From a virus (lineage: Duplodnaviria > Heunggongvirae > Uroviricota > Caudoviricetes), in the IMG/VR virus record IMGVR_UViG_2537561509_000007: a DNA stretch of 6,054 bases; one strand, 5' to 3'. The position numbers and the translations under genes are program-made. This document shows positions 2,942-3,089 of the stretch, piece after piece. Position 1 is the stretch's first letter; the number at the start of each line of letters is the position of its first letter. The notes below the pieces were generated by a model. That model was not told the origin of the DNA, made no database searches, and worked only from the letters and a program-made list of their open reading frames with translations.

Positions 2942-3089
2942 TGAATTTTGTGATGCGGTGAATGCGGCTAAGCGCACGCGGAACAGTTAAAACCAAAAAC
3001 AGTGTTATGGGTGGATTCTCTGTATCCGGCGTTAATTGTTAACTGGTTAACGTCACCTGGAGGCACCAGGCACCGCATCACAAAATTCA
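2942..3089. repeat. Long-range inverted repeat: 19-bp perfect arms (2942..2960 and 3071..3089) around a 110-nt spacer
   Basis: Left arm TGAATTTTGTGATGCGGTG and right arm CACCGCATCACAAAATTCA are exact reverse complements. It extends to about 21 bp if a G-U pair is allowed at 2941/3090. The right arm ends 5 nt before the dicB SD (GAGGA, 3095..3099). The spacer holds a tandem GTTAAC-TG-GTTAAC motif (3038..3051). Confidence 0.8.

What the first reader, a model, noticed from the sequence alone, without database searches (positions are those of the whole stretch)
2942..3089. 19-bp perfect inverted repeat bracketing 110 nt between DicF and dicB
In read-through RNA the arms would form a duplex of about 20 bp, long enough to be an RNase III substrate. 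DicF is known to be matured from longer operon transcripts by RNase III and RNase E, so this stem is a plausible processing site, though it begins about 8 nt after the DicF 3' end and need not define that end itself. Because its right arm ends 5 nt before the dicB SD, the stem could also couple dicB expression to processing. Alternatively the arms are paired DNA sites for a looping regulator, with the GTTAAC-TG-GTTAAC motif in the loop.
Basis: partly seen in the sequence, partly recalled or inferred. Interest (0 to 1): 0.6.

Follow-up and report, generated by a model that had tools for sequence, protein, structure and literature searches.

The report
RNase III stem closing STnc100-like RNA
The inverted repeat is real and forms a conserved ~21-bp RNA helix between DicF and dicB that matches a published RNase III cut site, and the 110 nt it encloses are an unannotated relative of the prophage small RNA STnc100, not a plain loop.

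Summary
Arms 2942-2960 and 3071-3089 are 19/19 complementary (21 bp with two outer pairs), and 0 of 500 shuffles reach 19.

The RNase III reading is supported but largely already known. Reviews citing Faubladier 1990 report an RNase III-made 72-nt DicF. Its 3' end maps to about 2951, the centre of this helix.

New here:
- The enclosed 110 nt are a folded domain that matches Rfam STnc100 over its core (38.8 bits, gathering score 47, E 2e-7).
- Most of the ~180 relatives have a closing helix of only 4-13 bp.
- A subfamily sitting after DicF-type terminators and before dicB, kilR or other early prophage genes extends it to about 19-22 bp.
- Three unrelated arm sequences keep that length. Nine of 19 pairs show compensatory changes, 93.5% of cells are paired versus 30-50% in slid controls, G·U outnumbers A·C, and the + strand folds better in 25 of 26 copies.
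- The subfamily lacks its own terminator (0/63 versus 73/166).

My inference is that RNase III cuts the helix centre, separating DicF, a ~130-nt STnc100-like RNA, and dicB mRNA.

The DNA-looping alternative is rejected: the second GTTAAC is a covarying stem strand. RBS occlusion is not supported by folding.

The parts
2880..2932 (+). DicF sRNA (53-nt form), including its Rho-independent terminator hairpin; the U-tract follows at 2933-2937
   Evidence: Rfam RF00039, 75 bits, 2881-2932. K-12 annotation mapped through alignment A1. Terminator-like site at 2915-2930 plus T-run.
2940..2960 (+). The inferred RNase III cut is after about 2951.
   Evidence: The 72-nt DicF end is from PMC5069750 and PMC9438474. 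The cut position is computed from those papers, not measured here.
2957..3074 (+). STnc100-like structured core, from GGUGAAU to GGAGGCACCAGGCACC. P2 is 2964-2968/2973-2979. P3 is 2980-2982/3025-3027 and encloses a variable insert at 2983-3024. P4 is 3028-3037/3045-3054 with the conserved loop GUUAACU at 3038-3044. P5 is 3056-3060/3066-3070.
   Evidence: Rfam RF02076 match 2944-3084 to model positions 21-154, 38.8 bits, E 2.3e-7, below the gathering score of 47. RNAalifold consensus with compensatory pairs in P3, P4 and P5. The P5 free positions pair in 209 of 209 copies.
3071..3091 (+). The inferred staggered RNase III cut is at about 3081|3082.
   Evidence: The position of the second cut is inferred from the 2-nt 3' overhang rule (PMC6212723).
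3095..3295 (+). dicB SD (3095-3099) and CDS (ATG 3107, stop 3293-3295), the gene immediately downstream of the helix
   Evidence: Pfam DicB PF05358, 125.5 bits. Annotation of identical genomes.
2669..2759 (+). Upstream irregular long hairpin that contains the inferred 5' end (about 2743) of the RNase III-dependent 190-nt DicF precursor. It is a second RNase III-type duplex on the other side of DicF.
   Evidence: Folds. The RNase III dependence of the 190-nt species is from PMC10448788. The coordinate is inferred from the length only.

Best explanation
The inverted repeat acts as RNA on the + strand. When transcription from dicBp reads through the DicF terminator, 2940-2960 pairs with 3071-3091. 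This makes a 21-bp helix that closes a folded domain of about 110 nt related to the prophage sRNA STnc100/PasD.

The helix is the RNase III site of the dicBF transcript. The enzyme binds the roughly two-turn duplex and cuts near its centre, at about 2951|2952 and, staggered by 2 nt, about 3081|3082.

That single event would do three things:
1. Create the 72-nt DicF isoform.
2. Release a ~130-nt STnc100-like RNA that keeps an 8-9-bp closing stem, the normal stem length in the rest of the family.
3. Leave a dicB mRNA with a short 5'-monophosphate leader of about 25 nt.

Shown here: the helix; its conservation by covariation and its constant length across unrelated arm sequences; the homology and fold of the enclosed domain; the restriction of the long helix to operon-internal copies that lack their own terminator; and the strand.

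Taken from the literature: RNase III dependence and the 72-nt length.

Inferred: the exact cut positions, the second cut, release of a stable middle fragment, and any function of that fragment.
For: (1) Helix and fold. 19/19 arms and 21 bp in RNA at -32.1 kcal/mol. MFE and centroid folds both close it.

(2) Covariation.
- RNAalifold on 26 diverse copies recovers columns 8-28/168-189 without being told.
- The count of structure pairs gives 93.5% paired versus 30-50% for slid controls.
- 9 of 19 pairs and 38 cells have changes on both sides.
- The covariation score is 0.270 versus 0.150 in shuffles, reached by 0 of 500.

(3) 45 distinct arm pairs in 233 instances fall into three unrelated arm sequences, all keeping a helix of about 19 bp (with outer pairs 21-22 bp).

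(4) Strand.
- G.U 46 versus A.C 20 among non-Watson-Crick pairs.
- The commonest allele and K-12 carry G.U pairs that would be mismatches in DNA or in the minus-strand RNA.
- The + strand folds 8.7 kcal/mol better on average, in 25 of 26 copies.

(5) Subfamily-specific extension.
- About 160 other family members have 4-13-bp closing helices.
- Their pairing decays to background by +5/+6 outside GGUG/CACC.
- P1-like phage-plasmids carry the same core with only 9 bp.

(6) The subfamily is operon-internal.
- 0 of 63 copies have a downstream terminator-like site versus 73 of 166 others.
- Canonical STnc100 ends in its own terminator.
- There is no + strand promoter-like site between the DicF terminator and dicB.
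- PMC10448788 found no internal promoter.

(7) RNase III.
- The 72-nt DicF is made by RNase III from the full-length transcript (PMC5069750, PMC9438474).
- Position 72 is window ~2951, and the helix spans DicF positions 61-81.
- RNase III accommodates about 22 bp, leaves 2-nt 3' overhangs, and the two pairs between the cuts usually include a G-C (PMC6212723).
- Here those pairs would be G2950-C3081 (G-C in all 22 paired copies of 26; unpaired in 4) and U2951-A3080.

(8) Every genuine DicF or DicF-like site sampled is followed by the element.
Against: - I could not read the primary paper (Faubladier 1990). The 72-nt figure comes from two secondary citations and is good only to about 1-2 nt.
- The 2023 study (PMC10448788) describes RNase III only at the 5' side (the 190-nt species). 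It reports 190- and 53-nt bands, not a 72-nt band.
- No transcriptome-wide RNase III map could be checked for this locus because the supplements are not held. The operon is also repressed in laboratory growth.
- Natural alleles with an A.C mismatch or a 1-nt bulge in the helix exist. Perfect pairing is therefore not required, and a bulge near the centre (Rac type) could restrict cleavage to one strand.
- Nothing here shows that the middle fragment accumulates.
Confidence: 0.75

Rival explanations
1. The long helix is purely architectural. It clamps and insulates the STnc100-like fold, or isolates the dicB translation start from upstream structure, within the polycistronic RNA. It is not itself the RNase III target, and the 72-nt end arises some other way.
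For: All family members have a closing helix. Covariation shows that pairing is selected, not that cleavage occurs. The 2023 Northern blots mention no 72-nt band.
Against: A 6-10-bp helix suffices for about 160 relatives. The extension to about two helical turns appears only in copies that have no terminator of their own and sit inside operons. The reported RNase III-dependent end falls at the helix centre.
Confidence: 0.12
2. The main role of the helix is control of dicB (and kilR) expression, with or without RNase III. It would set translation or mRNA half-life of the toxic downstream gene. One possible route is an alternative hairpin (3086-3095 with 3102-3111) that covers the AUG once the right arm is freed. 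Another is a 5'-monophosphate end that invites RNase E. This reading is not exclusive of the best explanation.
For: - The helix always ends a few nt upstream of the next gene's SD.
- The downstream genes are often toxic or small hydrophobic proteins: DicB, KilR and small membrane-like ORFs.
- The predicted opening energy of the RBS rises from 6.1 to 8.5 kcal/mol after the inferred cleavage.
- Loss of RNase III alters the stability of operon transcripts (PMC10448788).
Against: - The SD and AUG lie outside the helix, and the predicted differences are small (about 2 kcal/mol).
- The sequence downstream of the right arm is not conserved between the dicB, kilR and other contexts, so the alternative hairpin is not a conserved feature.
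- No expression data were available.
Confidence: 0.15
3. The arms are terminal inverted repeats of a small mobile element (MITE-like), or simply a conserved linker at which lambdoid prophages recombine to swap downstream cargo.
For: - The same ~150-bp segment precedes unrelated genes: dicB, kilR, rha/ash-type and others.
- Mosaic junctions fall at or near the right arm. L088 has a Qin-type DicF and core with a Rac-type right arm and kilR. L353 is the reverse.
Against: - There is no target-site duplication; the flanks are ...TTAAAG / TTGTTG....
- The arm sequence is not conserved among copies. It changes by compensatory substitution and exists in three unrelated versions.
- The core occurs widely without the outer arms.
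- G.U bias and the strand asymmetry of folding point to selection on RNA.
- Use as a recombination linker may be a side effect of conservation, not its cause.
Confidence: 0.05
4. The arms are paired DNA sites for a looping regulator, with GTTAAC-TG-GTTAAC as a further site.
For: Perfect 19-bp symmetry in this window. A tandem GTTAAC motif at 3038-3051.
Against: - The commonest alleles break DNA symmetry but keep RNA pairing through G.U.
- Arms of unrelated sequence are interchangeable as long as they pair.
- The second GTTAAC varies together with its 5' partner as a hairpin strand. Only the first, in the loop, is conserved.
- The arm sequence is absent from the immunity and operator region of the window.
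Confidence: 0.03

Closest known systems
RNase III/RNase E maturation of DicF from the dicBF operon transcript (Faubladier, Cam & Bouche 1990; Ragunathan et al. 2023, PMC10448788)
   Same: It is the same locus. The window is about 97% identical to K-12 Qin across the aligned dicF-dicB segment (window 2700-3130). The reported RNase III-dependent 72-nt DicF end coincides with the centre of this helix.
   Different: The accessible literature gives only the length of the product. It does not describe the helix, its covariation, or the nature of the enclosed 110 nt. I could not read the 1990 paper, so it may already show the stem.
STnc100 (Rfam RF02076) and PasD, Hfq-binding sRNAs of lambdoid prophage late regions
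   Same: They share the architecture: a closing helix on GGUG/CACC, the GGUGAAU motif, internal hairpins, and the GGAGGCACC-GGCACC hairpin. The CM alignment covers model positions 21-154.
   Different: - The score is below the Rfam gathering threshold (38.8 versus 47 bits).
- It has a distinct core motif, GCGCNCGNGNNNCAGUUAAA.
- It has no terminator of its own.
- It is located in the early-left operon after DicF, not near Q/stx/tRNAs.
- Its closing helix is about 21 bp instead of about 8 bp.
Excision of pre-16S and pre-23S rRNA by RNase III cleavage of long-range stems formed by flanking sequences (established knowledge)
   Same: A helix built from sequences on either side of a structured RNA is cut on both strands. 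This releases the enclosed RNA from a polycistronic precursor.
   Different: The scale differs (110 nt versus 1.5-2.9 kb), the setting is a prophage operon, and release of the middle fragment is only inferred here.
Intercistronic RNase III sites of phage T7 early mRNA (R1.1 etc.) and the lambda N-leader site (established knowledge)
   Same: These are phage-encoded hairpins between cistrons of an early transcript that use host RNase III to separate functional RNAs and to tune expression of the downstream gene.
   Different: Those are simple hairpins with internal loops, often cut on one strand. Here a perfect two-turn helix closes a conserved multi-hairpin domain.
RNase III-matured sRNAs ManS (Salmonella, PMC11745405) and CJnc190 (Campylobacter, PMC8687705)
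   Same: These are sRNAs whose ends are made by RNase III cleavage of a stem in a longer precursor.
   Different: They are unrelated in sequence and structure. In those cases the function of the product is demonstrated.

Membership tests
E. coli RNase III double-cleavage substrate | Intramolecular dsRNA helix of about two turns (~20-22 bp) | tested here: met
   21 contiguous pairs, 2940-2960/3071-3091, at -32.1 kcal/mol. The size requirement is from PMC6212723.
E. coli RNase III double-cleavage substrate | RNase III-dependent RNA end(s) mapped inside the helix | not testable with these tools
   Literature only. The RNase III-made 72-nt DicF (PMC5069750, PMC9438474) places a 3' end at about 2951, the helix centre. 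The primary paper and the genome-wide cleavage tables are not held.
E. coli RNase III double-cleavage substrate | The two stem positions between staggered cuts are paired, usually with a G-C/C-G pair | tested here: met
   This is conditional on the 72-nt end. The pairs are G2950-C3081 (G-C in all 22 paired copies of 26; unpaired in 4) and U2951-A3080. The rule is from PMC6212723.
E. coli RNase III double-cleavage substrate | Helix maintained by selection (compensatory change, length conserved) | tested here: met
   9 of 19 pairs are compensatory, 93.5% of cells are paired versus 30-50% when slid, and 0 of 500 shuffles reach the observed score. Three unrelated arm lineages keep about 19 bp.
STnc100 (Rfam RF02076) | Covariance-model score at or above the gathering threshold (47 bits) | tested here: not met
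   38.8-39.1 bits, E 2e-7 to 6e-7. Sister copies score 35.5-43.7 bits, whereas canonical copies score 77-161 bits.
STnc100 (Rfam RF02076) | Core architecture and motifs (closing helix on GGUG/CACC, GGUGAAU, internal hairpins, GGAGGCACC hairpin) | tested here: met
   CM alignment to model positions 21-154. Consensus fold. The P5 free positions pair in 209 of 209 copies.
STnc100 (Rfam RF02076) | Stand-alone gene with its own Rho-independent terminator 3' of the core | tested here: not met
   No terminator-like site within 90 nt in 0 of 63 subfamily copies versus 73 of 166 others. None between 3091 and dicB. The canonical model includes the terminator.
STnc100 (Rfam RF02076) | Hfq-bound, base-pairing sRNA | not testable with these tools
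   Reported for PasD and EcOnc27/STnc100 in the literature. There are no data for this copy.
MITE-like mobile element | Terminal inverted repeats conserved in sequence, flanked by a target-site duplication | tested here: not met
   The flanks AAAG / TTGT are not a duplication. The arms vary by compensatory change and occur in three unrelated versions.
Intrinsic terminator | GC-rich hairpin followed by a U-run | tested here: not met
   The right arm is followed by UUGUUGAGG. The scan finds only the DicF terminator on the + strand.
Palindromic or looping protein-binding DNA sites | Arm sequence (not complementarity) conserved; symmetric in DNA | tested here: not met
   G.U-only alleles are the most common, and unrelated arm sequences substitute for one another. 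Folding is strand-asymmetric.

The most novel reading that the evidence does not exclude
The dicBF-type and kilR-type early prophage operons encode a second, so far unannotated small RNA. This is a ~130-nt STnc100/PasD-family RNA lying between DicF and the division-inhibitor gene. It has swapped the family's usual terminator-based biogenesis for an RNase III excision cassette, the extended closing helix. One cleavage event would then yield DicF-72, a trans-acting structured sRNA with the invariant GUUAAC loop as a candidate seed or binding site, and a re-headed toxin mRNA.
Probability: 0.3. Interest if true: 0.65.

Novelty: new variant of a known kind. Interest (0 to 1): 0.4.

Why it matters
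RNase III processing of the DicF precursor has been known since 1990, so the central idea is not new.

What the analysis adds is the structural basis and an unexpected identity for the spacer. The dicF-dicB gap, treated as an untranslated linker in a well-studied operon, is a conserved, folded relative of the STnc100/PasD prophage sRNAs. Standard Rfam annotation misses it. Its closing stem has been lengthened to RNase III size specifically in operon-internal copies.

If the middle fragment accumulates, Qin-, Rac- and many O157 prophages would make one more regulatory RNA whenever the division-inhibitor operon is derepressed. The family would then show how one RNA core can be fitted with different biogenesis modules: its own terminator, tRNA-flanked arrays, or an RNase III cassette.

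It also gives a precise, cheap experiment for laboratories that already hold the strains.

Tried and rejected
- Primary sources. Faubladier & Bouche 1994 (PMC205167) is not held. I did not look up Faubladier 1990 itself; it surfaced only as a reference in the papers I read, so I relied on secondary citations.
- Genome-wide RNase III maps. Altuvia 2018 has no supplements held. Gordon 2017 only cites the 1990 paper.
- Helix length by constrained MFE with 30-nt flanks. This over-counted pairs in random flanks, with a median of 16 bp even for short-stem copies. I replaced it with direct pair counting.
- First DicF-to-element linkage filter. It was too strict because it required GGCACC, so it missed the common CACTGC allele. 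Reading the output showed that all genuine DicF sites carry the element.
- Coordinate slip. I first placed the dicB ATG at 3108, and the translation errors corrected it to 3107.
- RBS-occlusion hypothesis. It was computed and is not supported.
- Literature search for an annotated sRNA between dicF and dicB (RIL-seq, EcOnc, EDL933 RNA-seq). Nothing is reported at this position. The Rfam-based EDL933 list has 11 STnc100 copies, none adjacent to DicF.
- The kilR-upstream variants in PMC12711010 concern only -25..+137 and are not informative.
- MITE, terminator and DNA-operator readings were tested and rejected (see the membership table).

Full report
**Observation.** The window carries a perfect 19-nt inverted repeat, 2942-2960 (TGAATTTTGTGATGCGGTG) and 3071-3089, with 110 nt between the arms. 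In RNA two more pairs stack on the outside (A2940-U3091 and G2941.U3090). That gives 21 contiguous pairs and a duplex energy of -32.1 kcal/mol. None of 500 dinucleotide-preserving shuffles of the window gave a perfect repeat longer than 15 nt with arms up to about 340 nt apart. The arm occurs nowhere else in the window even with 3 mismatches. The MFE and centroid folds of 2870-3110 both close the stem (z = -4.5).

**Context.** The window is an O157-type Qin-like prophage segment, 100% identical over window 2600-3400 to strain FRIK1989. The genes, in order:
- a P22-Cro-like gene on the minus strand;
- an HTH plus S24-peptidase repressor;
- a DUF1391 (ydfA-like) gene;
- a 216-aa ORF with no Pfam match;
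- DicF (Rfam 75 bits, 2881-2932; K-12 annotation 2880-2932);
- the repeat;
- dicB (ATG 3107, Pfam 125 bits);
- a DUF1482 (ydfD-like) gene;
- an exonuclease-VIII-like ORF;
- an integrase fragment;
- a DinI-like gene.

On the + strand, no promoter-like site and no terminator-like site lies between the DicF terminator and dicB. The repeat is therefore transcribed only by read-through of the DicF terminator. This agrees with the published finding of no internal promoter (PMC10448788).

**What the 110 nt are.** They are not a loop. A permissive Rfam scan matches 2944-3084 to positions 21-154 of STnc100 (RF02076). The score is 38.8 bits with E = 2.3e-7, below the gathering score of 47.
- The model's 8-bp closing helix aligns with the inner 8 bp of the repeat.
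- The conserved GGUGAAU and GGAGGCACC-GGCACC motifs and the internal hairpins line up.
- STnc100 and its relative PasD are Hfq-associated sRNAs of lambdoid prophage late regions.
- Canonical copies score 77-161 bits, occur in tandem next to tRNA genes, and end in their own Rho-independent terminator.

**Family survey.** I scanned viral and genome collections for TCACCNGGAGGCACCNGGCACC.
- Of 184 unique copies, 161 have closing helices of 4-13 bp, most often 6-9.
- Family-wide, pairing outside GGUG/CACC falls from 98% at +1 to about background by +5/+6.
- A subfamily defined by the core motif GCGCNCGNGNNNCAGTTAAA behaves differently: 21 of 23 unique copies have helices of at least 14 bp, typically 19-22.
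- Further scans raised this to 63 unique copies and then 45 distinct arm pairs in 233 instances.

**Where subfamily members sit.** Most copies, including all E. coli-type ones, sit directly after a DicF or DicF-like terminator; the Scandinavium and Klebsiella-type copies have no recognisable DicF upstream. All sit directly before a gene:
- dicB in Qin-type prophages;
- kilR in Rac-type prophages;
- a Rha/Ash-type regulator;
- DUF5983-like proteins;
- small hydrophobic ORFs in Klebsiella-type copies.

Every genuine DicF site sampled is followed by the element. P1-like phages and about 155 phage-plasmids carry the same core between tRNA genes, but with only a 9-bp helix.

**Is the long helix selected, and on which strand?**
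- On a 26-sequence alignment, RNAalifold recovers the helix without being told.
- For the 19 pairs, 93.5% of cells are paired. The figure is 30-50% when the 3' partners are slid by 1-3 columns.
- Nine pairs and 38 cells show changes on both sides. No shuffle of 500 reaches the observed covariation score of 0.270, against a shuffle mean of 0.150.
- Three unrelated arm sequences (TGAATTTTGTGATGCGGTG, CAGGCTTTGCAATGCGGTG, CAGACCTTGCAATGCAGTG) all keep about 19 bp.
- Non-Watson-Crick pairs are mostly G.U (46) rather than A.C (20). The commonest allele and K-12 itself carry G.U pairs that would be mismatches in DNA or in the minus-strand RNA.
- The + strand folds better than its complement in 25 of 26 copies, by 8.7 kcal/mol on average.
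- The internal hairpins also covary. The two free positions in my search pattern pair in 209 of 209 unique copies.
The first GTTAAC is the conserved apical loop.

**Link to RNase III.** Two papers citing Faubladier et al. [quoted passage not shown]
- Counting from the K-12 5' end (window 2880), nt 72 is window 2951.
- The helix spans DicF positions 61-81, so the reported end lies at its centre.
- This fits an enzyme that accommodates about 22 bp and cuts in the middle (PMC6212723).
- With the usual 2-nt 3' overhang, the second cut would fall at about 3081|3082.
- The two pairs between the cuts, G2950-C3081 and U2951-A3080, include a G-C pair, as that study found typical. That pair is G-C in all 22 paired copies of the 26-sequence alignment (unpaired in 4).
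- The released middle fragment of about 130 nt would keep an 8-9-bp closing stem, the ordinary stem length of the family.
- Subfamily copies never have a terminator-like site within 90 nt downstream (0/63), against 73 of 166 for the rest.

I therefore read the extra ~12 bp as a biogenesis module. It lets host RNase III excise this RNA from an operon transcript while also making DicF-72 and a re-headed dicB mRNA. The RNase III dependence and the 72-nt length come from the literature. The cut coordinates, the second cut and accumulation of the middle fragment are my inferences.

**dicB coupling.** The SD (3095-3099) and AUG (3107) lie outside the helix. The predicted cost of opening 3093-3112 is:
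- 6.1 kcal/mol in the full precursor;
- 7.7 without DicF;
- 8.5 after the inferred cleavage;
- 8.7 without the left arm.

So the stem does not mask the RBS. If anything, the freed right-arm remnant (3086-3095) can pair weakly with 3102-3111. This alternative hairpin is not conserved in the kilR and other contexts. Coupling through mRNA stability remains possible. Loss of RNase III does change the abundance of operon transcripts (PMC10448788).

**Rivals.**
- A purely architectural clamp does not explain why two helical turns are needed only in operon-internal copies.
- A MITE or recombination linker is contradicted by the absence of a target duplication, the non-conservation of arm sequence and the RNA-type substitution pattern. 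Mosaic junctions near the right arm (L088, L353) do suggest that the conserved element also serves as a crossover point.
- DNA-looping sites are contradicted by the G.U alleles and the interchangeable arm sequences.
- An intrinsic terminator is excluded because there is no U-run.

**Comparison with what is known.** The RNase III step in DicF maturation is already known. What I did not find in the accessible literature is:
- the helix itself;
- its covariation;
- the identity of the spacer as an STnc100/PasD relative;
- the restriction of the long helix to one subfamily.

Rfam-based annotation of EDL933 lists 11 STnc100 copies and 4 DicF copies, none adjacent to each other. This is consistent with the sub-threshold score. 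By Rfam's own criterion the element is not a member of STnc100, and it lacks the family's terminator. It is best called a diverged variant with a different biogenesis. Functionally it resembles rRNA excision stems and the phage T7 and lambda intercistronic RNase III sites.

**Limits.**
- I could not read the 1990 paper, so it may already depict this stem.
- The 72-nt coordinate is good to about 1-2 nt.
- No RNA-end data for this locus could be examined.
- The collection scans were capped at 120 loci each and are dominated by E. coli prophages. Counts of instances therefore reflect sampling, not independent events.

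Noticed in passing
window 2669-2759: An irregular long hairpin lies upstream of DicF, with about 27 pairs including a perfect 9-bp run at 2683-2691/2737-2745. The 5' end of the RNase III-dependent 190-nt DicF precursor (PMC10448788), placed by length at about 2743, falls inside that run. DicF therefore appears to be flanked on both sides by RNase III-type duplexes.
   Followed up: partly
window 3002-3295: A GTG-initiated 97-aa ORF is in frame with dicB and overlaps the 3' half of the structured RNA. 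It recalls the published 'in-phase internal start' of dicB. The overlapped segment varies in length by non-multiples of 3 among relatives (core lengths 109, 118, 119, 124 and others), so it is unlikely to be coding.
   Followed up: partly
window 3086-3111: A weak alternative hairpin (3086-3095 with 3102-3111, 10 pairs of which 3 are G.U) would cover the dicB AUG. It forms only when the right arm is not engaged in the long helix.
   Followed up: partly
L012 2265-3380 and L018 3121-3798 (viral contigs): Canonical STnc100 copies (77-161 bits) occur as tandem arrays of 2-4 next to clusters of tRNA genes, each with its own terminator.
   Followed up: partly
L004 2980-3175 (plasmid p98192-contig_4); phages P7 and D6; about 155 PLSDB plasmids: P1-like phages and phage-plasmids carry the same core as the DicF-linked subfamily (81-85% identity to window 2954-3077). 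It sits between tRNA genes, has only a 9-bp closing helix, and has no DicF.
   Followed up: partly
L088 and L353 (viral and metagenome contigs): Mosaic copies exist. L088 has a Qin-type DicF and core with a Rac-type right arm and kilR. L353 has a Rac-type DicF-like sequence and core with a Qin-type right arm and a DUF5983-like gene. Recombination breakpoints therefore sit at or near the right arm.
   Followed up: partly
L316, L389, L417, L422 (upstream of the element): Several Klebsiella-type copies are preceded not by DicF but by a conserved hairpin-like motif, ACCACCGAGCCTGAAGTGGT. L316 and L422, like the related copies L183, L252 and L262, are followed by a small hydrophobic ORF (MSKNGIRS...). 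Neither feature matched a Pfam or Rfam family.
   Followed up: no
window 599-1237 (+) and 265-555 (-): The immunity region here encodes an HTH plus S24-peptidase (LexA/CI-like, potentially self-cleaving) repressor of 212 aa and a P22-Cro-like protein. K-12 Qin has the 135-aa DicA, which PMC10448788 describes as lacking the RecA-cleavage site. This prophage's dicB operon may therefore be SOS-inducible.
   Followed up: no
window 3111-3135: A near-perfect tandem 12-mer (AAACGTTATTAC / AAACGTTAATAC, 13 nt apart) lies within the first codons of dicB.
   Followed up: no
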